From Bacteroidales bacterium (GTDB lineage Bacteria; Bacteroidota; Bacteroidia; Bacteroidales; VadinHA17): DNA of 60,184 nucleotides. Positions 3,471 to 59,907 of the stretch are shown one piece after another. Below the pieces are notes generated by a model. The model was given only the letters and a program-made list of their open reading frames with translations. It did not search any database and had not been told where the DNA came from. The translations under genes were made by a program, and so were the position numbers. The stretch's first letter is position 1; each line of letters begins with the position of its first letter. The stretch spans positions 1 through 60,184 of the forward strand of contig JAHYJA010000001.1 in assembly GCA_019429325.1 (NCBI GenBank). The letters are read 5' to 3'.

Positions 3471-3503
3471 CTTCCGTCTTCGGTCTTCGGTCTTCGGTCT
3501 TCT
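3471..3503. repeat. Heptamer tandem array (CTTCSGT) x ~4.7
   Basis: cttccgt cttcggt cttcggt cttcggt cttct, between the znuB stop and the lpdA start. The same unit recurs at 57011-57024, 59651-59699 and 59888-59907. Confidence 0.9.
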
Positions 3504-6090: not shown

Positions 6091-7707
6091 ATGAAGATGA
6101 ATTCAAGAATTCTGATCATGGCATTGATTGTCATTCCTCTGCTCTCCGGCACACCGGCCGCAGGGCAATACAACAATTACAGCCGGATGACGCAGATCAT
6201 TAAGAATCTTGCATCGGAATACTCTTCCGTATGCAGTGCGAGATCGCTTGTAAAAACTGCCGGAGGCAAAGATATCTGGCTTTTGTCGGTAGGAACAGGC
6301 GATCGCGATAATAAACCGGCAATAGCAATTATCGGAGGCGTTGAAGGAAATCACATACTGGGAAAAGAGCTCGCTCTCGGTTTCGCCTCTTCGCTGCTGA
6401 AGGATTATCAGACACCGGAGGTAAGGGATCTTCTTAACCGCCTGACTTTTTACATAATTCCCGACGTAAGTCCGGACGCAACCGAGCAGTTCTTCGCCGG
6501 CCTGAAATATGAAAGAATCCTTAATGCCCGTCCGGTTGATGATGACAGGGATTTTTCGGTCAGTGAGGATCCCTTCGAGGACCTTAACCAGGATGGTTAC
6601 ATTACTCTGGTTCGCATCAGGGATCCCTCAGGTTCATACATGGAAAGCCCTGAAGATAAAAGGATCATGGTGACAGCTGACCTGGCGGAAGGGCAGGCGG
6701 GAAGCTGGCTTGTGATAAGCGAAGGGATTGATAACGACAAAGACGGAAGGTTCAATGAAGATGGTGAAGGCGGGGTCTGTTTCAACAGGAACTTCTCCTT
6801 CAATTATGAGGAGTTCGGACCCGGCGCCGGCCTTCATGCCGTGTCAGAACCTGAATCAAAAGCCGTTGCAGATTTTCTGTTCGACAGATTTAATATTTAT
6901 GCAACTTTTTCTTTTGGCCCTCAGGATAATCTCGGACAGCCGATGAAAGCCTCTGACCGTCCGGCACAGGGAAGAATGGTTACAAGCATTACTAAAAGCG
7001 ACGAGACAATAAACAAACTCGTATCGGATAAATATCACGAGATCACCGGAGCGAAAGGGGCCCCTGCAGCACCAGACTCAAGGGGTAATTTCATGGAATG
7101 GGCATACTACCACTATGGGAGATACAGTTTCAGCACTCCGGGCTGGTGGTATCCCGTGGAAAAGGGCAAAAACAACGAAGCAGCTTTCCTGAGATTTGCT
7201 GAAAAGAACAAAATGAACGATGTGTTTGTTCCCTGGACCGCCATCAATCATCCGGATTTTCCCGGGAAGCAGGCTGAAGTGGGAGGTATAAAGCCTTTTG
7301 CAATGATCAATCCTCCTGCTGATACACTCCCTGACCTGATCAGTGCAAACTACAGATTCATAAAGGCCATTGCGGAATTGCATCCCGAACTGGAGTTCCT
7401 TGATCTTAAAACAGAGAACCCCGGAGAGGATGTCTACCGGCTGACACTGAAAGTACATAATAAAGGTATTTTCGCAACCTGTGCAGAGGTCGGGAATCAG
7501 AATATCTGGACAAGAATTATGAGAATTACCGTTGAGCCCTCTAAAGGACAGACGATCCTGAGCGGACAGAAGGTCCAGAGGATCCCGAGGCTCGGGGGTG
7601 ATCAGTCGGAAGAGTTCTCCTGGCTGATCTCCGGAAAAGGGAATGTAACGATCAGGGCCGGTGCAATCAATACCGGTACAATAACCGAAACAATAAACCT
7701 GAGATAA
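6091..7707 (+). CDS. Secreted M14 (zinc carboxypeptidase) family homologue, predicted catalytically inactive
   Basis: It has a signal peptide and aligns without gaps to the downstream paralogue through the M14 core. The HxxE site reads ExxH (GGVEGNHILGKE vs GNIHSNEIQGTE). The second zinc His is Gly (FSFGPQD vs QSFHNSG). The general-base Glu is Pro (STPGW vs SNELW). It retains NRNF and the Asp-rich DNDKDGRFNEDG loops. Confidence 0.6.
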   Translation: MKMNSRILIMALIVIPLLSGTPAAGQYNNYSRMTQIIKNLASEYSSVCSARSLVKTAGGKDIWLLSVGTGDRDNKPAIAIIGGVEGNHILGKELALGFASSLLKDYQTPEVRDLLNRLTFYIIPDVSPDATEQFFAGLKYERILNARPVDDDRDFSVSEDPFEDLNQDGYITLVRIRDPSGSYMESPEDKRIMVTADLAEGQAGSWLVISEGIDNDKDGRFNEDGEGGVCFNRNFSFNYEEFGPGAGLHAVSEPESKAVADFLFDRFNIYATFSFGPQDNLGQPMKASDRPAQGRMVTSITKSDETINKLVSDKYHEITGAKGAPAAPDSRGNFMEWAYYHYGRYSFSTPGWWYPVEKGKNNEAAFLRFAEKNKMNDVFVPWTAINHPDFPGKQAEVGGIKPFAMINPPADTLPDLISANYRFIKAIAELHPELEFLDLKTENPGEDVYRLTLKVHNKGIFATCAEVGNQNIWTRIMRITVEPSKGQTILSGQKVQRIPRLGGDQSEEFSWLISGKGNVTIRAGAINTGTITETINLR

Positions 7708-7727
7708 TCCTTTATAAAACGATCATC

Positions 7728-9464: not shown

Positions 9465-10118
9465 TTAATATGTCTGCAGGGAGATCTTGAACTGGCCGGT
9501 AGCGTTCCGGGCGCTGATCTTAAATGTCCATTCACCGGTTTTGTCCTTGTTCTCCTCTTCGGTGATATTGAAGGATTTTCTCCAGTTAAGGTTCCCGAAT
9601 TCATCAATAACGATATCAGAATAGCTCTTGCCTCCCGGCATAATAATACTGACCCTGATCTCGCCCGATTTACAGTCGCCGTTAACCGACATAACCACGG
9701 TGCGGGCTGTTTTCTCCACATCGAAGGAATAGCTCTTTGTAAATGATGCCCCCTTGACCGACCTGAAGAAGTCCCATGTGGTTCTTTCCGAATCGCCCCC
9801 GAAAGGTGCTCCGTGAATAAATTCGCCCCCGGGTGTGAAGATGAACGGTTCGCCGTAACTGAAAGATCTGCCGGAACCCCTGTAGGTACGCATCATCTCA
9901 TTTATTTTCTCCGTAGCTTTCTCAATATTTACTTCGGCTTCCTTCATAGCTTTCTCCTGGGCTTTCTCCTGGGCCTTCTTCTGTGACTCTAACTCCTTCA
10001 GGTCTCTGAGCTCCTTTTCTTTCTCACCAACGCTCCTCTCCTGGGCGGTGGCGGATTGAACGGCAATCACTGCTGTGATCAGGGTGATTGCTGCTAACAT
10101 AAATACTTTCTTTTTCAT
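9465..10118 (-). CDS. Secreted hypothetical protein (N-terminal coiled coil, C-terminal beta-rich domain)
   Basis: Signal peptide MKKKVFMLAAITLITAVIAVQSATAQ, a Lys/Glu-rich heptad-like segment with KAQEKAQEKA, and no recognisable catalytic motif. It is divergent from the HK/RR operon. Confidence 0.6.
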   Translation of the reverse strand: MKKKVFMLAAITLITAVIAVQSATAQERSVGEKEKELRDLKELESQKKAQEKAQEKAMKEAEVNIEKATEKINEMMRTYRGSGRSFSYGEPFIFTPGGEFIHGAPFGGDSERTTWDFFRSVKGASFTKSYSFDVEKTARTVVMSVNGDCKSGEIRVSIIMPGGKSYSDIVIDEFGNLNWRKSFNITEEENKDKTGEWTFKISARNATGQFKISLQTY

Positions 10119-10144
10119 GACTGCCTGTTTTTTAATTCCTTATC

Positions 10145-10152
10145 CAAAGATA
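10145..10152 (-). promoter_or_regulatory. Bacteroidota -7 promoter box (CAAAnnTA on the + strand)
   Basis: CAAAGATA lies 27 nt upstream of the minus-strand start at 10118. Confidence 0.45.
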
Positions 10153-19452: not shown

Positions 19453-19620
19453 ATGGCTTACCAAATTAATGACGATTGTACAGCTTGTGGAACTTGTATT
19501 GATGAGTGTCCGGTTGAGGCAATTTCAGAGGGTGATATTTACGTGATTGATCCGGATGTCTGCACTGATTGCGGTGCATGCGCTGATGTTTGCCCGGTCG
19601 AGGCAATTCATCCCGCTTAA
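19453..19620 (+). CDS. fdx: 2x[4Fe-4S] ferredoxin (55 aa), not in the ORF track
   Basis: It translates to MAYQINDDCTACGTCIDECPVEAISEGDIYVIDPDVCTDCGACADVCPVEAIHPA. There are two CxxCxxCxxxCP clusters, and the gene has its own -7 box and terminator. Confidence 0.9.
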   Translation: MAYQINDDCTACGTCIDECPVEAISEGDIYVIDPDVCTDCGACADVCPVEAIHPA

Positions 19621-39847: not shown

Positions 39848-39997
39848 ATTTTCCTGAAACAGGACTAAGGTCCCGGACTGAGAAGGAGGGAGCCTCATCT
39901 GTCCGTCAGCTAAAGCTGACGGCAATTGAGCTGCTTCAATTGCCGTTGGCTTTAGCCAACGGATGTGGAAGCTTTTACTGCAGCCGGGCTTTAGCCC
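39821..39997. repeat. REP-like hairpin cluster with a 27-bp direct repeat
   Basis: ccgtcagctaaagctgacggcaattga occurs at 39821-39847 (rsmG 3' end) and again at 39903-39929. Consecutive 8-bp-stem hairpins are CCGTCAGC-TAAA-GCTGACGG (39903-39922), GGCAATTG-N8-CAATTGCC (39921-39944) and CCGTTGGC-TTTA-GCCAACGG (39943-39962), plus GGGC-TTTA-GCCC (39986-39997). Confidence 0.85.
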
Positions 39998-40053
39998 AAT
40001 AAAGCGAAATTCAAAAAAATTATCCCTTCAGCCTCAATTTTCCAAAAAAACAC

Positions 40054-40102: not shown

Positions 40103-40258
40103 ATGAAAAGGACATTTCAGCCATCCAGGAGAAAGAGAGTGAACAAGCATGGTTTCAGGGAAAGGATGTCCACCCCTAACGGCAGAAGAGTGATTTCAGC
40201 ACGGAGGGCAAAAGGGAGGAAGAGGCTGACAGTCTCTTCTGAAATGAGGTTAAAATAA
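40103..40258 (+). CDS. rpmH: 50S ribosomal protein L34 (51 aa), not in the ORF track
   Basis: It translates to [51 protein letters not shown], which has the canonical L34 N-terminus and basic composition. Confidence 0.95.
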
Positions 40259-40283
40259 TATTTACCAAGCCTGTAATCCATAA

Positions 40284-44237: not shown

Positions 44238-45269
44238 ATGGCAGAAGAAGAACTCCCCGATCAGCAGGAACTATTTGAACATTTCAGATTTAATGTTGAG
44301 CCCGGGCAATCCATGCTGAGGCTGGACAAATATCTTTTCTCCAGGATCGAAAATATTTCAAGGACACGTATCCAGGATGCTGCCGCAGCAGGCAACATAC
44401 TGGTTAACAACAAGCCTGTCAGGGCAAGCTACAGGGTAAAACCCGGTGATATGATCCAGATTGTACTCCCTGCGCCACCCCGAGAAATAGAGCTTATTCC
44501 CGAGAACATCCCCCTGGACATCGTTTATGAAGATGATGATGTGATTGTGGTGAATAAGAAACCCGGCATGGTTGTTCATCCGGCCTATGGGAATTATACC
44601 GGCACACTGATAAATGCACTGATGTGGCATTTCAGGGATCTTCCGCTGTTTCAGACCGGCGAGCTCAGACCCGGACTGGTGCACAGGATCGATAAGGACA
44701 CTTCCGGCATAATTGTCGTGGCAAAAAATGAGCTCAGCCTTAACCGCTTATCGCGCCAGTTCTATGAACGTACCACTGACCGTTTGTACACTGCCATCGT
44801 CTGGGGCCGGCCGGAACCTGCCTCCGGGACCATCACGGGCCATGTCGGAAGGAACATAAGAGACAGAAAGATCATGCAGGTCTTTCCTGATGGCAGTCAG
44901 GGCAAACCTGCGGTAACACATTATAAGGTCATTGAGGATCTTGGCTATATTTCAGTCGTTGAATGCAAGCTTGAGACCGGAAGGACTCATCAGATAAGGG
45001 TCCATTTCAGCTGGTTCAGACATCCCCTGTTCAATGATGACGAGTATGGTGGTGACAGGATACTAAAGGGAACCGTCTTCAGCAAGTATCAGCAATTCGT
45101 CAGAAACTGCTTTGAAATTTTGCCCCGTCAGGCGCTTCACGCACGGTCGCTTGCATTTGATCATCCTGCTACCGGGGAGAGGCTCTCCTTCGTATCTGAC
45201 CTTCCCGGTGATATGCAGACAGTGATCGATAAATGGAGGGCATATATCTCAGGAAGGGCTGAGGGCTGA
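44238..45269 (+). CDS. rluD: 23S rRNA pseudouridine synthase, RluD/RluA family
   Basis: N-terminal S4 domain and catalytic motif HRIDKDTSG. The last 4 codons and the TGA stop lie inside the GGGCTGA array. Confidence 0.9.
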   Translation: MAEEELPDQQELFEHFRFNVEPGQSMLRLDKYLFSRIENISRTRIQDAAAAGNILVNNKPVRASYRVKPGDMIQIVLPAPPREIELIPENIPLDIVYEDDDVIVVNKKPGMVVHPAYGNYTGTLINALMWHFRDLPLFQTGELRPGLVHRIDKDTSGIIVVAKNELSLNRLSRQFYERTTDRLYTAIVWGRPEPASGTITGHVGRNIRDRKIMQVFPDGSQGKPAVTHYKVIEDLGYISVVECKLETGRTHQIRVHFSWFRHPLFNDDEYGGDRILKGTVFSKYQQFVRNCFEILPRQALHARSLAFDHPATGERLSFVSDLPGDMQTVIDKWRAYISGRAEG

Positions 45270-45307
45270 GGGCTGAGGGCTGAGGGCTGAGGGCTGAGTG
45301 CTGAGGG
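45256..45307. repeat. Heptamer tandem array (GGGCTGA) x ~7.4
   Basis: Six perfect copies plus GTGCTGA and GGG. The array contains the rluD stop codon. Confidence 0.95.
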
Positions 45308-45312
45308 AAGAT

Positions 45313-45353
45313 TTGTGAGTTGTGAGTTGTGAGTTGTGAGTTGTGAGTTGTGA
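45313..45353. repeat. Heptamer tandem array (TTGTGAG) x ~5.9
   Basis: Perfect copies. It is related to the TTGTGAT arrays at 55647 and 59567-59648. Confidence 0.95.
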
Positions 45354-45385
45354 TTAGGCTGAGCTGCCATCCCTTGTAATACGCC

Positions 45386-45426
45386 TGAATGACTATTGAA
45401 TGACTATTGAATGACTATTGAATGAC
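45386..45426. repeat. 11-mer tandem array (TGAATGACTAT) x ~3.7
   Basis: Three perfect copies plus a partial one. Confidence 0.95.
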
Positions 45427-45434
45427 CAGATAAT

Positions 45435-45469
45435 TCGCTCCATCGCTTTGTCGCTCCATCGCTCCATCA
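45435..45469. repeat. Octamer tandem array (TCGCTCCA) x ~4
   Basis: tcgctcca tcgctttg tcgctcca tcgctcca tca. Confidence 0.85.
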
Positions 45470-45483
45470 TTCCCTGCTTCCTG

Positions 45484-45590
45484 CTTTGCCAGCCGTCTTC
45501 GTCGGCCGTAGGTCGACTTCGACGACCGAAGGCCGAAGCCTTGCTTTGCCAACCGTAGCCATGCGGAGGTTGGGCGAAGGCTGGCTCCCC
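45484..45590. repeat. GC-rich hairpin block sharing words with the 59.7-59.9 kb locus
   Basis: CTTTGCCAGCC (45484) and GCGAAGGCTGGC (45574) are both also present near 59722/59831/59869. Local stems are GGTCG-N7-CGACC and CCAACC-N13-GGTTGG. Confidence 0.75.
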
Positions 45591-45610
45591 GCTCTACGCT
45601 CTACTCTATC

Positions 45611-46429
45611 TCACCATCTGCCGCCGGCACCACCTCCTCCGAAACTGCCTCCTCCGAATCCGCCGAATCCGCCGCCAGACCCTGTTCCTCCTCCTCCCGA
45701 GAATCCTCCCCAACTGCCGCTGTGCCTGCTGCTGCCTGAATTCATCATTGCCAGCAGCATCCACACAGGAAGCCCCTTTTTGCTTATATGCCTCTGGTTC
45801 GAGCCTCCCTTTGTACGGATAAACAATATCGTCACCAGTACGATTATGAAAATAACAAAAGGTATGACATCACTTACATTGCCCCTCATCTCTTTGCTAT
45901 ACTCGTCCGCAGTAAACTCCCTGGCTGCAAGCGACATGATGACGTCAGTGGCTTTGTCGAGGCCATTGTAAAAATTTCCAGCCCTGAACTCTGGCAGTAT
46001 CTCGTAATCTACTATCTGACCGCAGACAATATCAGGGATTACCCCTTCAAGGCCGTATCCCGGCGCAATAAAGACCTCACCAACCGGCGACACTGTTGTT
46101 TTTGGCTTTACAAGTATCAGAACGCCGTTATCCAGGCCCTGACGGCCTATTCCCCACTTTTCAGCAAGACGGTGGGCATAATCTGCCACGTCGTATCCCC
46201 CGAGATCTGAAACAGTAACAACAGCTATCTGGGTTGATGTGGTGTCGCTGAATGCGACAAGCTTGCCCTCGAGCATGTTTATCTCCCCTGATGTCAGCAT
46301 CCCGGCAAAGTCGTTTACAAGCCTGGGGGGAGATGGCTTATCCGGGATTGTCTGGGCTGCAACATTGCCGGTGATGCCTGTGCCAGCAAGCAAAACATAT
46401 ATGATCAGAATAACGTATCTCGTTTTCAT
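45611..46429 (-). CDS. TPM-domain protein with a TM helix and Gly-rich C-terminal tail (YgcG-like)
   Basis: Signal peptide, TPM/phosphatase-like domain (NDFAGMLTSGE...QIAVVTV), a TM segment (VIPFVIFIIVLVTILFI), and the tail GSWGGFSGGGGTGSGGGFGGFGGGSFGGGGAGGRW. Confidence 0.75.
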   Translation of the reverse strand: MKTRYVILIIYVLLAGTGITGNVAAQTIPDKPSPPRLVNDFAGMLTSGEINMLEGKLVAFSDTTSTQIAVVTVSDLGGYDVADYAHRLAEKWGIGRQGLDNGVLILVKPKTTVSPVGEVFIAPGYGLEGVIPDIVCGQIVDYEILPEFRAGNFYNGLDKATDVIMSLAAREFTADEYSKEMRGNVSDVIPFVIFIIVLVTILFIRTKGGSNQRHISKKGLPVWMLLAMMNSGSSRHSGSWGGFSGGGGTGSGGGFGGFGGGSFGGGGAGGRW

Positions 46430-47594: not shown

Positions 47595-48581
47595 ATGAGA
47601 ACAATAGCAATAGTTGCCGGAGGTAATTCTTCTGAATACGAGATCTCTGTAAAAAGCGCGAATGAAGTGAGTAAGACATTGTCTGCCAGATATATAACCT
47701 ATATCATAATGATCCGTGGCATCAACTGGTACTGGGAGGATCCCAAAGGGCGCTTCCACGCTGTTGACAAGAATGATTTTTCCCTGATGACCGATGATGC
47801 CAGGATAAGATTTGATGCCGTCTTCATAGCCATACATGGCACCCCGGGTGAGGACGGGCTACTGCAGGGTTATCTCGACATGCTGGAAATTCCGTATACA
47901 AGCTGCAGCTCTTTTTGCTCAGCCCTCACCTTCAACAAACAGGCCTGCAAGTCATATCTCAGAGAATACGGGATTCCTATGGCTGATTCAGTCTTAATAA
48001 ACAGGAGGGAAGTTCCCGCTACTTCTGAGATTATCAGCAGAACCGGATTGCCCTGTTTTGTCAAACCCAACGCGAGCGGGTCGAGCTTTGGGGTAAGCAA
48101 GGTCACAAAGGAGGAAGAGTTATCATCTGCCATCGAAAAAGCTTTTCATGAGAGCCCGCAGGTGATGGTGGAAGCGTTTATGGAGGGGCGTGAGGTCGGA
48201 TGCGGAGTTGTAAAATCCGGGGAAAAAACTTTGGTATTGCCTGTAACCGAGATCATCAGCAAGAATGATTTTTTCGACTACGAAGCCAAATACACTCCCG
48301 GGAGGTCTGATGAGATCACTCCCGCCGACCTGCCGGTAGAGATCACAGATGAAATTCAGGAAATGAGCTCAGCTGTTTATGACATCCTTGGCTGCAACGG
48401 GATTGTCAGGGTTGATTTTATTATCGTCGGCACGAGGCCATTTTTCCTTGAGATCAATACTGTCCCCGGGATGACGCCGGAAAGCATAGTGCCAAAGCAG
48501 GCAGAGGCTGCGGGGGTAGCGCTTGAGGAGCTCTATTCGATGGTGGTCGAAGACTGTATAAGAAGGGGCGTTACGGCGTAG
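47595..48581 (+). CDS. ddl: D-alanine--D-alanine ligase
   Basis: N-terminal MRTIAIVAGGNSSEYEIS, then HGTPGEDG, an ATP-grasp core and C-terminal EINTVPGMT. The last 5 codons and the TAG stop lie inside the GGGGCGTTACGGCGTA array. Confidence 0.9.
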   Translation: MRTIAIVAGGNSSEYEISVKSANEVSKTLSARYITYIIMIRGINWYWEDPKGRFHAVDKNDFSLMTDDARIRFDAVFIAIHGTPGEDGLLQGYLDMLEIPYTSCSSFCSALTFNKQACKSYLREYGIPMADSVLINRREVPATSEIISRTGLPCFVKPNASGSSFGVSKVTKEEELSSAIEKAFHESPQVMVEAFMEGREVGCGVVKSGEKTLVLPVTEIISKNDFFDYEAKYTPGRSDEITPADLPVEITDEIQEMSSAVYDILGCNGIVRVDFIIVGTRPFFLEINTVPGMTPESIVPKQAEAAGVALEELYSMVVEDCIRRGVTA

Positions 48582-48622
48582 GGGCGTTACGGCGTAGGGG
48601 CGTAGGGGCGTAGGGGCGTTAC
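48565..48622. repeat. Nested 16-mer/8-mer tandem array (GGGGCGTTACGGCGTA x2, GGGGCGTA x2, GGGGCGTTAC)
   Basis: Perfect copies. The array contains the ddl stop codon. Confidence 0.95.
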
Positions 48623-48626
48623 ACGT

Positions 48627-48655
48627 TGTGCCACTATGCAGCTGTGCCGCTATGC
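48627..48655. repeat. Direct repeat TGTGCCNCTATGC x2 (16-nt period)
   Basis: tgtgccactatgc agc tgtgccgctatgc. Confidence 0.8.
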
Positions 48656-48669
48656 CGTAATGCCGTTTG

Positions 48670-50090: not shown

Positions 50091-50187
50091 AAACTCTGAA
50101 ACTCTGAACCGAGGCGCTCCGCGCCGAGCTCGCCGTAGGCAAACTCTGAAACTCTGAAACTCTGAAACTCTGAAACTCTGAAACCTG
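50091..50187. repeat. Octamer tandem arrays (AAACTCTG x2 and x~5.9) flanking a GC-rich core hairpin
   Basis: Arrays lie at 50091-50106 and 50141-50187. The core at 50111-50140 contains GGCGC-TCC-GCGCC. Confidence 0.95.
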
Positions 50188-55646: not shown

Positions 55647-55688
55647 TTGTGATTTGGGATTTGTGATGTGTGATTTGTGATTTGTGAC
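55647..55688. repeat. Heptamer tandem array (TTGTGAT) x6
   Basis: ttgtgat ttgggat ttgtgat gtgtgat ttgtgat ttgtgac. Confidence 0.9.
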
Positions 55689-55736
55689 CATCGAACCATC
55701 GAACCATCGAACCGTCGAACCATAGTACCGTCGAAC
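55689..55736. repeat. Octamer tandem array (CATCGAAC) x6
   Basis: Three perfect copies, then ccgtcgaa c-catagtac-cgtcgaac variants. It directly abuts the heptamer array. Confidence 0.9.
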
Positions 55737-56936: not shown

Positions 56937-57009
56937 TCAAATAACAGGCCATTTAAAATAACCGGAAACCATCCGTAAAATTGTCCGGATATAATCGCTT
57001 TCTCCACTC

Positions 57010-57041
57010 CCGTCTTCGGTCTTACTTGGCTCAGTGCACAG
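57010..57041. repeat. 32-nt anchor word shared with 59689-59720 (29/32 identical)
   Basis: ccgtcttcggtcttacttggctcagtgcacag vs ccgtcttccgtctttcttggctcagagcacag. Confidence 0.9.
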
Positions 57042-57070
57042 TGCAGAGGGGCAGAATATCTTAAAATACC

Positions 57071-57098
57071 GATTACTGATTACTGATTACTGATTACC
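57071..57098. repeat. Heptamer tandem array (GATTACT) x4
   Basis: Three perfect copies plus GATTACC. It is followed by ATTACCAACT, which recurs at 59419-59428. Confidence 0.95.
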
Positions 57099-57102
57099 AA
57101 CT

Positions 57103-57188
57103 ATCTCCTGCTTCCGCTTTCGGTTTTCGTTCTCTCTTGTCTCCCCCTCTCCCCCTCTCCTCTTCTCCCCTTCTTTCCTCCCGTCTCC
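57103..57188 (+). repeat. Polypyrimidine (CT-rich) tract
   Basis: About 90% C/T over 86 nt, with an uninterrupted 43-nt pyrimidine run at 57140-57182. It contains GTCTCCCCCTCTCC (57139-57152), identical to 59543-59556. Confidence 0.9.
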
Positions 57189-59419: not shown

Positions 59420-59453
59420 TTACCAACTGCTCTCTATGGCTCAGGGCAAGACT

Positions 59454-59504
59454 GTCGTGCAGGTCGTGCAGGTCATGCAGGTCATGCAAGTCGTGCAAGT
59501 CTGA
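59454..59504. repeat. Nonamer tandem array (GTCGTGCAG) x ~5.6
   Basis: gtcgtgcag gtcgtgcag gtcatgcag gtcatgcaa gtcgtgcaa gtctga. Confidence 0.95.
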
Positions 59505-59566
59505 AGAAACTTCTTAATTATGCCCTTGGTATTCGACCTCCTGTCTCCCCCTCTCCATTTTGGTTT

Positions 59567-59648
59567 GATTTTTGAATTGTGATTTTTGAATTGTGATTTT
59601 TGATTTTAAATCACAAATCCAGACTCACGAATCACAAATCACAAATCA
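59567..59648. repeat. Imperfect long inverted repeat built from tandem units (GATTTTTGAATTGT x2.6 facing TCACAAA-type heptamers)
   Basis: The left arm (59567-59603) contains TTGTGAT words. The right arm (59611-59648) contains their complement, TCACAAA. The centre is tttaaa. Confidence 0.85.
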
Positions 59649-59650
59649 AT

Positions 59651-59699
59651 CTTCCTCCTTCGGTCTTCCGTCTTCGGTCTTCCGTCTTCCGTCTTCCGT
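59651..59699. repeat. Heptamer tandem array (CTTCSGT) x7
   Basis: cttcctc cttcggt cttccgt cttcggt cttccgt cttccgt cttccgt. This is the same unit as at 3471-3503. Confidence 0.95.
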
Positions 59700-59795
59700 C
59701 TTTCTTGGCTCAGAGCACAGGCTTTGCCAGCCATAGCTGGACGAAGGACAGCGACGGCTGGGCTCAGAGCTTAGGGCAAGAGAGTAATTCTGTTT

Positions 59796-59890
59796 GCCAA
59801 CTGCCAACTGCTTTGTCAGCCGTAGCTTCAGCGAAGGCTGGCCAACTGCTTTGTCAGCCGTAGCTTCAGCGAAGGCTGGCCAACTGCTTT
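59796..59890. repeat. 38-nt perfect tandem duplication (x2.3), each unit carrying a hairpin
   Basis: gccaactgctttgtcagccgtagcttcagcgaaggctg occurs at 59803-59840 and 59841-59878, with partial copies on both sides. The stem is CAGCC-N14-GGCTG. Confidence 0.95.
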
Positions 59891-59907
59891 CCGTCTTCCG
59901 TCTTCCA
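59888..59907. repeat. Short CTTCCGT array (x ~2.7)
   Basis: tttccgt cttccgt cttcca closes the repeat-rich spacer. Confidence 0.8.

What the first reader, a model, noticed from the sequence alone, without database searches (positions are those of the whole stretch)
45256..45600. Four different tandem arrays plus a hairpin block fill the rluD / TPM convergent spacer
Within 340 bp, in order, lie GGGCTGA x7.4, TTGTGAG x5.9, TGAATGACTAT x3.7, TCGCTCCA x4, a CTGCTTC doublet, and a ~100-bp GC-rich block with several stems. Almost no unique sequence remains between the two stop codons. Arrays of unrelated unit sequence lying head to tail are hard to explain by simple slippage of one seed. The pattern looks like serial addition of modules.
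Basis: seen in the sequence. Interest (0 to 1): 0.8.

Follow-up and report, generated by a model that had tools for sequence, protein, structure and literature searches.

The report
Fast-evolving short tandem repeats between genes
The gap between two converging housekeeping genes in an uncultured Bacteroidales genome is filled with short 7-11 base tandem repeats and a GC-rich palindromic block, and this is one case of a known genome-wide class of fast-changing, dispensable intergenic repeats, not a special device at this locus.

Summary
Between the rluD stop (45269) and the TPM stop (45611), Tandem Repeats Finder (TRF) finds GGGCTGA x7.6, TTGTGAG x5.9, TGAATGACTAT x3.7 and TCGCTCCA x4.2. A 64%-GC palindromic block and a short GCTCTAC array follow. 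Shuffles give no such arrays.

The spacer is not unique. The 60-kb window holds 15 such arrays, all in the 6.8% of DNA that is intergenic, and heptamers dominate.

Same-genus genomes (88-92% nucleotide identity, collinear) have 1, 30, 51 or 136 bp at this site, against 341 bp here. They share only the gene-proximal arrays: GGGCTGA, seeded from rluD's own GGC-TGA end, and GAGCGTA next to TPM. The central ~280 bp is specific to this lineage. A sister species has a different composite at the same site. Other spacers also turn over; one octamer array has about 2, 6 or 51 copies.

My best reading is slippage-driven heptamer-class simple-sequence arrays plus a small dispersed palindromic element. 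This matches Mrazek's long simple sequence repeats (LSSRs), cyanobacterial short tandemly repeated repetitive (STRR) sequences and Xanthomonas/Nostoc G-rich heptamers. The spacer is dispensable for the flanking genes.

A dedicated module-adding mechanism is not. One puzzle remains: the same units recur at several loci in this genome.

The parts
44238..45269 (+). rluD-like gene (RluA-family pseudouridine synthase with S4 domain). Its last 3 codons (AEG) and its TGA stop are GGGCTGA units.
   Evidence: ORF. Pfam PF00849 and PF01479. Congener L170 ends ...GR-TAG with no repeat.
45255..45307 (+). (GGGCTGA) x7.6 array. It is old and gene-proximal, with 2.4 copies in congeners and 0 in L170. It is the only canonical G-quadruplex motif in the window, and it lies on the rluD sense strand.
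45313..45353 (+). (TTGTGAG) x5.9 array. It is in the same 7-nt register as the GGGCTGA array, joined through intermediate units GTGCTGA, GGGAAGA and TTTGTGA. It is specific to this lineage. The same unit class recurs at 55647 and at 59566/59608.
45354..45385 (+). Short non-repeated linker with a GGCTGAG remnant.
   Evidence: no copy elsewhere.
45386..45426 (+). (TGAATGACTAT) x3.7 array, specific to this lineage.
45435..45468 (+). (TCGCTCCA) x4.2 imperfect octamer array, specific to this lineage. Its unit is within 2 mismatches of ACCATCGA at 55687, which likewise follows a TTGTGAT array.
45474..45487 (+). CTGCTTC doublet, which overlaps the start of the GC-rich block.
45482..45588 (.). GC-rich (64%) palindromic block. 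It holds two copies of the motif TGCTTTGCCARCCGT...CGAAGGC, with hairpins at 45502-45536 and 45550-45574 and an outer pairing 45488-45497/45576-45585. The motif recurs at 59720, 59809 and 59847. The block is absent from congeners at this site.
45590..45604 (-). (GAGCGTA)-type array on the TPM sense strand (CGCTCTA x2.1 on the + strand). It is old and gene-proximal, with x2 to x4.7 copies in congeners. The same unit follows ddl in congeners.
45611..46429 (-). TPM-domain protein gene, convergent with rluD.
48564..48660 (.). Sister example. An AGGGGCGT/TACGGCGT array runs over the ddl stop and is followed by a roughly inverted array. Congeners have GAGCGTA x3-8 here.
50091..50184 (.). Sister example. 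An AAACTCTG array (x2.2 plus x5.5) is split by a GC hairpin. The congener has AAACCCTG/AAACATTG units around the same hairpin.
55647..55736 (.). Sister example. TTGTGAT x5.9 abuts ACCATCGA x6.2. The octamer has 51 copies in L163 and about 2 in L175.
59442..59906 (.). Sister example. A chain of 6 or more arrays plus the same GC-rich motif (a 38-mer, x2.3), flanked on both sides by TCTTCCG arrays.

Best explanation
The spacer is a local pile-up of hypervariable simple-sequence arrays with 7-11 nt units, the class in which heptamers dominate. A small GC-rich palindromic repeat that is dispersed in this genome sits among them. Shown: two arrays are old and hug the genes. (GGGCTGA)n grew out of rluD's own terminal GGC-TGA. 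(GAGCGTA)n lies next to the TPM stop. The central ~280 bp (TTGTGAG, TGAATGACTAT, TCGCTCCA and the GC block) was gained in this lineage after it split from congeners that are ~92% identical. Arrays at orthologous sites change in copy number and in homogenised unit variants. Inferred: the arrays arise and turn over by replication slippage and unequal recombination from local seeds. They are tolerated at gene 3' ends, where there is no promoter to disrupt. Gene-abutting units carry a stop codon (TGA or TAG every 7 nt, so all three frames are closed), and this lets them invade the gene end harmlessly. The spacer has no required function for rluD or TPM. Side effects on 3'-end stability or on transcriptional read-through (G-quadruplex, hairpins) are possible but unproven.
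For: Fifteen arrays against 0 in shuffles, all within the 6.8% of the window that is intergenic, where they make up 15% of it. Period 7 dominates across 1.55 Mb of related loci: 90 arrays of period 7, 32 of period 8 and 22 of period 9. Congeners L161-L174 are collinear at 88-92% identity, and the alignment breaks exactly at the spacer. Their spacers are 1 bp (L170-L174, five assemblies), 30 bp, 51 bp and 136 bp, against 341 bp here, and only the GGGCTGA and GCTCTAC ends are shared. Orthologous arrays differ in copy number and in unit variants. The octamer has about 2, 6.2 or 51 copies. GAGCGTA has x3.3, x3.7 or x7.9 copies and is replaced by AGGGGCGT in the window. AAACTCTG in the window corresponds to AAACCCTG in the congener. 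The rluD ends in relatives read AGR-GGC-TGA, and L016 has (GGCTGA)x3. The register is shared across the first two arrays, with intermediate units between them. Period-5+ repeats occur in 33 of 43 orthologous spacers in the wider clade, with different units. The literature describes the same class: heptamers are the commonest long simple sequence repeats and polymerase slippage has been proposed, Bacteroidetes have mixed heptamer assemblages (PMC4679880), and Xanthomonas shows variable arrays between the same genes in close relatives (PMC4692102).
Against: Unit sequences are not random. Six heptamer pairs within one mismatch occur among 9 units, against 0.7 expected (P<0.0005). TTGTGAK and TCTTCSG arrays recur at 3-4 separate spacers. 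TTGTGAK arrays appeared at two new sites in this lineage. Pure local slippage does not predict any of this. The 11-mer and 8-mer arrays have no visible seed in congeners. No same-species genomes were found, so true population-level copy-number variation was not observed. One inverted heptamer array (59566-59648) is better conserved (97%) than the coding DNA around it, so some arrays may be under selection.
Confidence: 0.75

Rival explanations
1. The spacer is a functional 3'-end element. Under this reading, the arrays and GC hairpins act as a bidirectional terminator or insulator for the convergent transcripts, or as 3'-end stabilisers, with a G-quadruplex on the rluD mRNA and hairpins on both strands.
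For: The position is convergent. [quoted passage not shown] Many relatives carry inverted arrays that would form long hairpins in this spacer and downstream of ddl (L003, L004, L082, L087, L104, L106; L001). A GC hairpin inside another array keeps its position but has a completely different stem in a congener. One inverted array is 97% conserved.
Against: Five congener assemblies have a 1-bp spacer, so nothing here is needed. No hairpin-plus-T-run terminator is present. The whole spacer folds no better than shuffles, with z = +0.41 on the + strand and +1.90 on the - strand. There is no Rfam match. The arrays in this spacer are direct repeats, not inverted. Allowing a G4 improves the predicted energy only from -17.7 to -18.9 kcal/mol.
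Confidence: 0.12
2. The central block, or at least its GC-rich part, was inserted by a small mobile element similar to REP/REPIN elements, MITEs or cyanobacterial small dispersed repeats (SDRs). Under this reading, array units spread between loci together with such elements.
For: The motif TGCTTTGNCARCCRTAGC...GCGAAGGCTGG occurs 4 times in the window against 0.01 expected and is absent from the 160 relatives' loci held when it was searched. The block is absent from congeners at this site. At two other loci a GC block sits inside an array, with the same unit on both sides. A second composite module, [TCTTCSG]n-CTTGGCTCAGNGCACAG, recurs at 57025 and 59704. Unit vocabulary is shared between loci. 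From memory, Elhai 2008 described small hairpin repeats inside heptamer arrays in Nostoc; that paper could not be read here.
Against: No full-length second copy of the block or of the array segment exists in the window or in the 174 loci held at that point. No terminal inverted repeats or target-site duplication are visible. No transposase or REP-associated tyrosine transposase (RAYT) could be looked for in only 60 kb. The shared sequence is only 18-38 nt long.
Confidence: 0.1
3. The spacer is an assembly artefact, with repeats misjoined or collapsed in a metagenome-assembled genome.
For: Congener assemblies break or carry N-gaps exactly at such arrays (L164, L169, L175). Copy numbers in the window could therefore be inexact.
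Against: Each array is at most 53 bp, shorter than a read. Arrays of the same type sit at the same sites in many independent assemblies from different samples. Both ends of the spacer join to conserved coding sequence.
Confidence: 0.03

Closest known systems
Long simple sequence repeats with 5-11 nt units (Mrazek, Guo and Shah 2007, as summarised in PMC4679880)
   Same: Tandem direct repeats of 7-11 nt that are far longer than chance allows. Heptamers are the commonest class. The repeats are mostly intergenic, have a patchy phylogenetic distribution, and polymerase slippage is the proposed origin.
   Different: That survey did not cover this uncultured Bacteroidales lineage. Here several arrays with different units lie end to end and make up 15% of intergenic DNA.
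Mixed heptamer assemblages in Bacteroidetes and cyanobacteria (TAACTGA repeats; MacGregor 2015, PMC4679880)
   Same: Intergenic heptamer arrays mixed with other heptamers. Close relatives have shorter spacers without repeats. Indels come in 7-nt steps. Contigs end inside the repeats.
   Different: The TAACTGA unit itself is not tandem here. Only a 1-nt variant, (TTACTGA)x4.4, occurs at 57067. The arrays here mostly abut stop codons, not start codons.
G-quadruplex-forming GGGNATC / GGGGAYT heptamer repeats of Xanthomonas and Nostoc (Rehm 2015, PMC4692102)
   Same: [quoted passage not shown] Such repeats are under-represented between divergent genes. Length and sequence vary widely between close relatives at the same gene pair.
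   Different: The unit is GGGCTGA. Most arrays here are not G-rich. G4 formation was not tested.
Cyanobacterial STRR heptamers (Mazel 1990) and small dispersed repeats inside them (Elhai 2008); from memory, cited
   Same: A few heptamer families are reused at many intergenic loci. Small hairpin elements are embedded in the arrays.
   Different: The phylum is different and none of the STRR units is present as an array. The genome-wide family structure cannot be established from 60 kb.
REP / BIME / REPIN elements
   Same: GC-rich imperfect palindromes, clustered, extragenic and often between convergent genes. A GTAG tetranucleotide lies within the conserved motif.
   Different: Here GTAG lies inside the stem, not 5' of it. 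Only about 4-5 copies were seen. No RAYT gene is known. The hairpins are not unusually stable.

Membership tests
Long simple sequence repeats, 5-11 nt units (LSSR) | Head-to-tail direct repeats of a 5-11 nt unit, longer than expected by chance in that genome | tested here: met
   TRF scores of 47-99. Fifteen arrays against 0 in 100 shuffles.
Long simple sequence repeats, 5-11 nt units (LSSR) | Units that are not multiples of 3 are concentrated outside coding sequence | tested here: met
   All 15 arrays lie in the 6.8% of the window that is intergenic. Only two overlap a gene end, by 15-18 nt.
Long simple sequence repeats, 5-11 nt units (LSSR) | Heptamers are the most abundant unit length | tested here: met
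   Across 1.55 Mb of related loci, 90 arrays have period 7, 32 have period 8 and 22 have period 9. In the window, 8 of the 15 arrays have period 7.
Long simple sequence repeats, 5-11 nt units (LSSR) | Copy number varies between close relatives (slippage) | tested here: met
   Between congeners, GGGCTGA has 0, 2.4 or 7.6 copies, the octamer about 2, 6.2 or 51, and GAGCGTA 3.3 to 7.9. Variation within a species could not be tested.
Cyanobacterial STRR | The specific STRR heptamer units (CCCCAGT, TTGGTCA, CAACAGT) | tested here: not met
   No tandem copies on either strand.
Cyanobacterial STRR | A few unit families are reused at many loci of one genome | tested here: inconclusive
   TTGTGAK occurs at 3 spacers and TCTTCSG at 4. 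The excess of near-identical units has P<0.0005. Only 60 kb was seen.
G4-forming heptamer repeats (Rehm 2015) | At least four G3+ tracts spaced 1-7 nt apart | tested here: met
   A G4 motif was found at 45256-45279, the only hit in the window; shuffles average 0.66. The array has six perfect GGG tracts.
G4-forming heptamer repeats (Rehm 2015) | Unit GGGNATC or GGGGAYT | tested here: not met
   The unit is GGGCTGA. No tandem GGGAATC, GGGGACT or GGGGATT is present.
G4-forming heptamer repeats (Rehm 2015) | A quadruplex actually forms (CD spectroscopy, K+ dependence) | not testable with these tools
   The only evidence is an energy model: -18.9 kcal/mol with G4 allowed against -17.7 without.
REP / REPIN | A 20-40 nt imperfect palindrome present in many extragenic copies | tested here: inconclusive
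   The motif has 4 copies in 60 kb against 0.01 expected. Hairpin z-scores are only -2.2 to +0.1. The genome-wide count is unknown.
REP / REPIN | A cognate RAYT (Y1 transposase) gene in the genome | not testable with these tools
   Only a 60-kb window is held.
Intrinsic (rho-independent) terminator | A GC-rich stem-loop followed by a T-run | tested here: not met
   No sites were found in 44800-46000 on either strand.
CRISPR array | Repeats of 23-50 nt separated by unique spacers of similar length | tested here: not met
   The units are 7-11 nt and directly abut, with no spacers.
Any Rfam RNA family | A covariance-model match at the gathering score | tested here: not met
   No match in the whole window. 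Only chance-level hits appear at E of 0.7 or more in 45150-45750.

The most novel reading that the evidence does not exclude
The recurrent units are not born locally. Under this reading, TTGTGAK, TCTTCSG, GAGCGTA and the GC-rich palindrome are copied between intergenic sites by an active, sequence-directed process. That process could be an unrecognised very small mobile element system, or templated array synthesis. Composite spacers like this one would then be built by repeated insertion into existing arrays. This would be a Bacteroidales counterpart of the unexplained spread of STRR and small dispersed repeats in cyanobacteria.
Probability: 0.1. Interest if true: 0.7.

Novelty: new member of a known kind. 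Interest (0 to 1): 0.35.

Why it matters
Heptamer-class tandem arrays are a long-noted but mechanistically unexplained feature of a scattered set of bacterial lineages. This environmental Bacteroidales genus gives a clear natural series, from 1 bp to 341 bp at one gene pair and from about 2 to 51 copies at another, all within about 8-12% sequence divergence. Such a series could be used to measure birth, growth and turnover rates of these arrays. It could also be used to ask why the same units recur at different loci. There are practical consequences too. These arrays break metagenome assemblies, they attract spurious gene calls (a 60-aa ORF was called inside the 51-copy array), and they rewrite the last codons and the stop codons of neighbouring genes. 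For rluD and TPM themselves the spacer appears dispensable.

Tried and rejected
- **Rfam.** A search of the whole window at gathering score found nothing, and a permissive search of the spacer gave only chance-level hits.
- **Terminator and promoter scan.** No terminator was found in the spacer region.
- **Folding.** The whole spacer on both strands, and the GC block alone, are no more stable than shuffles. I therefore dropped a structured-RNA reading.
- **Same-species genomes for population variation.** The genome scan found relatives with at most 81% RluD identity. The metagenome scan found at most 70% TPM identity. The 90%-identity protein cluster gave only congeners at about 88-92% nucleotide identity. 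L177 ends before the spacer.
- **Exact look-ups.** The window's own RluD and TPM proteins are not on record.
- **Second copies.** A search for the GC block, the linker or the array segment in the 174 loci then held and in the window found none. The dispersed motifs were absent from the 160 relatives' loci held at that point.
- **Named heptamer families.** TAACTGA, the STRR1-3 units, GGGAATC and GGGGAYT are not present as arrays.
- **Strand bias of the arrays.** I saw no consistent purine or GC bias among the units, and GC skew is uniformly negative across the window. This is uninformative.
- **Elhai 2008.** The paper is not held in the library, so the comparison with small dispersed repeats rests on memory plus the citation seen.
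- **Literature search.** The first search was swamped by the prefix 'STRR'.
Full report
**1. The observation**

The sequence is as described. rluD (an RluA-family pseudouridine synthase, 44238-45269, + strand) and a TPM-domain gene (45611-46429, - strand) converge on a 341-bp spacer. Tandem Repeats Finder (TRF) reports these arrays:

| Coordinates | Unit | Copies | Matches |
|---|---|---|---|
| 45255-45307 | GGGCTGA (reported as AGGGCTG) | 7.6 | 95% |
| 45313-45353 | TTGTGAG | 5.9 | 100% |
| 45386-45426 | TGAATGACTAT | 3.7 | 100% |
| 45435-45468 | TCGCTCCA | 4.2 | 76% |
| 45590-45604 | CGCTCTA | 2.1 | 100% |

A 64%-GC block lies at about 45482-45588, against 47% GC for the window. It has an internal direct repeat, TGCTTTGCCARCCGT, and several inverted repeats. 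Arrays of this kind never appear in shuffles: 0 in 100 shuffles against 15 observed in the window.

Two refinements apply. The first array begins inside rluD and encodes its last three residues and its TGA stop. The stems of the GC block are not exceptional for their composition: z = -1.27 for the block, and -2.2 to +0.1 for individual hairpins.

**2. The spacer is not unique in this genome**

The window holds 15 arrays with 7-11 nt units. All are in the 6.8% of DNA that is intergenic, and they make up 15% of it. Composite chains like the one reported also occur elsewhere:

- 55647-55736: TTGTGAT x5.9 abutting ACCATCGA x6.2.
- 57005-57174.
- 59442-59906: six or more arrays plus the same GC-rich motif.
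- 48564-48660, 50091-50184 and 3471-3502.

The GC-block motif TGCTTTGNCARCCRTAGC recurs at 59720, 59809 and 59847, which makes 4 copies against 0.01 expected.

**3. Organism and relatives**

The window is a contig of an uncultured Bacteroidales metagenome-assembled genome (MAG). Its RluD is NCBI MBW6499785.1, on a contig of 60,184 bp. Species representatives in GTDB reach only about 80% RluD identity, and JGI metagenome contigs reach at most 70% TPM identity.

The rluD/TPM convergent pair is conserved in 69 of these loci, with spacers from -22 to 461 bp. Of the 43 spacers of at least 40 bp, 33 carry repeats of period 5 or more. Nearly all have different units. Examples are TGCCCTG, CCAGCGT, CGACACA, CTCACCG x19.6 and GGTAYRAC x11.5. 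Inverted arrays such as (CGCAAAGNN)n...(NNCTTTGCG)n and (CACAGAGNNN)n...(NNNCTCTGTG)n would form long hairpins. Across 1.55 Mb of such loci, period 7 dominates, with 90 arrays against 32 of period 8 and 22 of period 9.

**4. The decisive comparison: same-genus genomes**

The 90%-identity RluD cluster led to 14 contigs, L161-L174. They are fully collinear with the window at 88-92% nucleotide identity, and their alignments break exactly at the spacer. The spacers are as follows:

| Loci | Spacer | Content |
|---|---|---|
| L170-L174 (five assemblies) | 1 bp | rluD ends ...GR-TAG; no repeat |
| L161, L162 | 30 bp | GGGCTGA x2.4 + GCTCTAC x2 |
| L165-L167 (L169 shows the same start but its contig ends inside the array) | 51 bp | GGGCTGA x2.4 + CTACGCT x4.7 |
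| L163 (L164 shows the same start but ends inside the array) | 136 bp | Degenerate GGGCTGA x2, then GTAATCG x4.4, then AATCCRM x8.6 |
| Window | 341 bp | As in section 1 |

The window's right end, GGCTCCCCGCTCTACGCTCTACTCTATCTCACCATC, is homologous to the right end in L165. So the two gene-proximal arrays are old, and the central ~280 bp (45308-45589) is a gain specific to this lineage. A sister species independently built a different composite at the same place.

More distant relatives end rluD with AGR-GGC-TGA, and L016 has (GGCTGA)x3. The GGGCTGA array was therefore seeded by the gene's own last codon plus its stop codon.

**5. Other orthologous spacers behave the same way**

- The octamer upstream of the PCMT (protein-L-isoaspartate O-methyltransferase family) gene has 6.2 copies in the window, 51 copies (400 bp) in L163, and about 2 in L175.
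- Downstream of ddl, congeners have GAGCGTA x3.3 to x7.9, while the window has AGGGGCGT/TACGGCGT.
- Downstream of the URO-D (uroporphyrinogen decarboxylase) gene, the window has AAACTCTG where L165 has AAACCCTG/AAACATTG. Unit variants homogenised within each species are the mark of concerted evolution.
- Assemblies of congeners end or carry N-gaps at arrays (L164, L169, L175).

**6. Relations between the arrays**

GGGCTGA and GTTGTGA lie in one 7-nt register and are joined by intermediate units (GTGCTGA, GGGAAGA, TTTGTGA). This fits one heptamer tract that diversified, although the register evidence alone is weak, because two of the seven rotations tie for best match. The 11-mer and 8-mer arrays have different periods and are separate.

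The units that abut stop codons on the sense strand carry a stop codon themselves: GGGCTGA after rluD, and GAGCGTA after TPM and after ddl. With a 7-nt period this closes all three reading frames within three units. It would allow such arrays to overrun a gene end at the cost of only a few residues. This last step is inference.

**7. What pure slippage does not explain**

Unit sequences are reused. Among 9 heptamer units, 6 pairs are within one mismatch in some rotation or strand, against 0.7 expected (P<0.0005).

- TTGTGAK arrays occur at 45313, 55647 and 59566/59608.
- TCTTCSG arrays occur at 3471, about 57010, 59650 and 59889.
- The order TTGTGAK array then CCATCGNN array occurs at both 45.3 kb and 55.6 kb.

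Only the copy at 59.6 kb is shared with a congener, at 97% identity over 70 bp, which is above the ~88.6% identity of the neighbouring coding DNA. So arrays with a pre-existing unit appeared at two new sites in this lineage. Transfer between loci or unit-specific selection therefore remains open. However, no longer shared flank, terminal repeat or second full copy was found.

**8. Function**

- No Rfam family matches.
- No hairpin-plus-T-run terminator is present.
- The spacer as a whole folds no better than shuffles, with z = +0.41 and +1.90.
- The GGGCTGA array is the only canonical G-quadruplex motif in the window, but the model gain is small, -18.9 against -17.7 kcal/mol.
- The 1-bp spacer in five congener assemblies shows that nothing here is required by rluD or TPM.

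**9. Comparison with what is known**

The class is known.

- Mrazek and colleagues found that 5-11 nt long simple sequence repeats (LSSRs) are patchily distributed among bacteria. Heptamers were the commonest, and they proposed polymerase slippage as the origin (as summarised in PMC4679880).
- MacGregor described TAACTGA arrays mixed with other heptamers in cyanobacteria and in Bacteroidetes. These included "larger assemblages of heptamer repeats", relatives with shorter repeat-free spacers, and contigs ending inside repeats.
- Rehm and colleagues described G-rich heptamers that sit just after stop codons on the sense strand, are rare between divergent genes, and vary greatly between Xanthomonas species at the same gene pairs. 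The function remains unknown.
- The cyanobacterial short tandemly repeated repetitive (STRR) sequences, and the small dispersed hairpin repeats reported inside them, are the closest analogy for GC blocks embedded in arrays. This rests on my memory and on the citations, because the paper was not readable.
- None of the named units occurs here as an array, apart from a 1-nt variant, (TTACTGA)x4.4, at 57067.

**10. Verdict**

It is, however, a new instance in an environmental Bacteroidales genus of a known kind of repeat: dispensable intergenic arrays of the heptamer class with an embedded palindromic element. It is not a new mechanism.

| Reading | Confidence |
|---|---|
| Slippage and turnover of simple-sequence arrays | 0.75 |
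| Functional 3'-end element | 0.12 |
| Mobile-element origin of the central block | 0.10 |
| Assembly artefact | 0.03 |

Interest is 0.35. Its value lies mainly in the unusually clean evolutionary series and in the unexplained reuse of units.

Noticed in passing
window 59566-59648; L175 9969-10038: Inverted heptamer arrays (TTGTGAT-type, then AAATCAC-type) form a long imperfect hairpin downstream of the hybrid sensor kinase gene. This stretch is 97% identical to a congener over 70 bp, while the adjacent coding DNA is only about 88.6% identical. It may be under selection, for example as a terminator, or it may have been exchanged recently.
   Followed up: partly
window 50105-50140; L165 15501-15555: A GC hairpin sits inside the AAACTCTG array and is orthologous in a congener. 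The flanks are identical (CTCTGAACCGA ... GAGCTCGCCGWAGGCAAAC), but the stem is completely different (GGCGC/GCGCC against CCCGG/CCGGG). The structure is kept while the sequence is swapped.
   Followed up: partly
L163 20165-20564 (orthologous to window 55687-55736): An octamer array CGTCGAAC/CCATCGAA has 51 copies (400 bp) in one congener, 6.2 in the window and about 2 in L175. A 60-aa ORF was called inside the 51-copy array and is almost certainly spurious.
   Followed up: yes
window 57067-57097: (TTACTGA) x4.4 is a one-base variant of the TAACTGA repeat described in Beggiatoaceae, cyanobacteria and a few Bacteroidetes. It lies about 145 nt upstream of the sensor kinase start codon, in forward orientation.
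   Followed up: partly
window 48564-48581 and 45255-45269: Arrays overrun gene ends. The last residues and the stop codons of ddl (...RRGVTA-TAG) and rluD (...RAEG-TGA) are encoded by repeat units, and congeners have different C-termini.
   Followed up: partly
L164 end, L169 end, L175 about 7590-7710 and about 10050-10150: Congener contigs terminate, or scaffolds carry N-gaps, exactly at these arrays. They are a systematic cause of breaks in metagenome assembly in this genus.
   Followed up: partly
window 57025-57041 and 59704-59720: A second dispersed composite module recurs at two spacers: a TCTTCSG array followed by CTTGGCTCAG(W)GCACAG. A weaker third match lies at 59758. It is absent from the 160 relatives' loci held when it was searched.
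   Followed up: partly
window 39848-40000; L163 5656-5738; L161 5113-5163: Direct and inverted copies of GCTGACGGCAATTGA, with hairpins such as CCGTTGGCTTTAGCCAACGG, lie downstream of the GidB-like gene. Congeners have a 15-mer array (x3.4 to x5.5) at the same site.
   Followed up: no
L165 11045 and 14037 (also L161, L163, L166, L167): The same unit, GAGCGTA, follows two different genes in one genome (TPM and ddl). In each case it is on the sense strand right after the stop codon, so it lies in opposite chromosomal orientation at the two sites.
   Followed up: partly
window 19454-19620 and 40104-40259: Two small genes sit inside apparent long spacers: a 2x[4Fe-4S] ferredoxin-like ORF and ribosomal protein L34. 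These spacers are therefore not truly long and are free of arrays.
   Followed up: no
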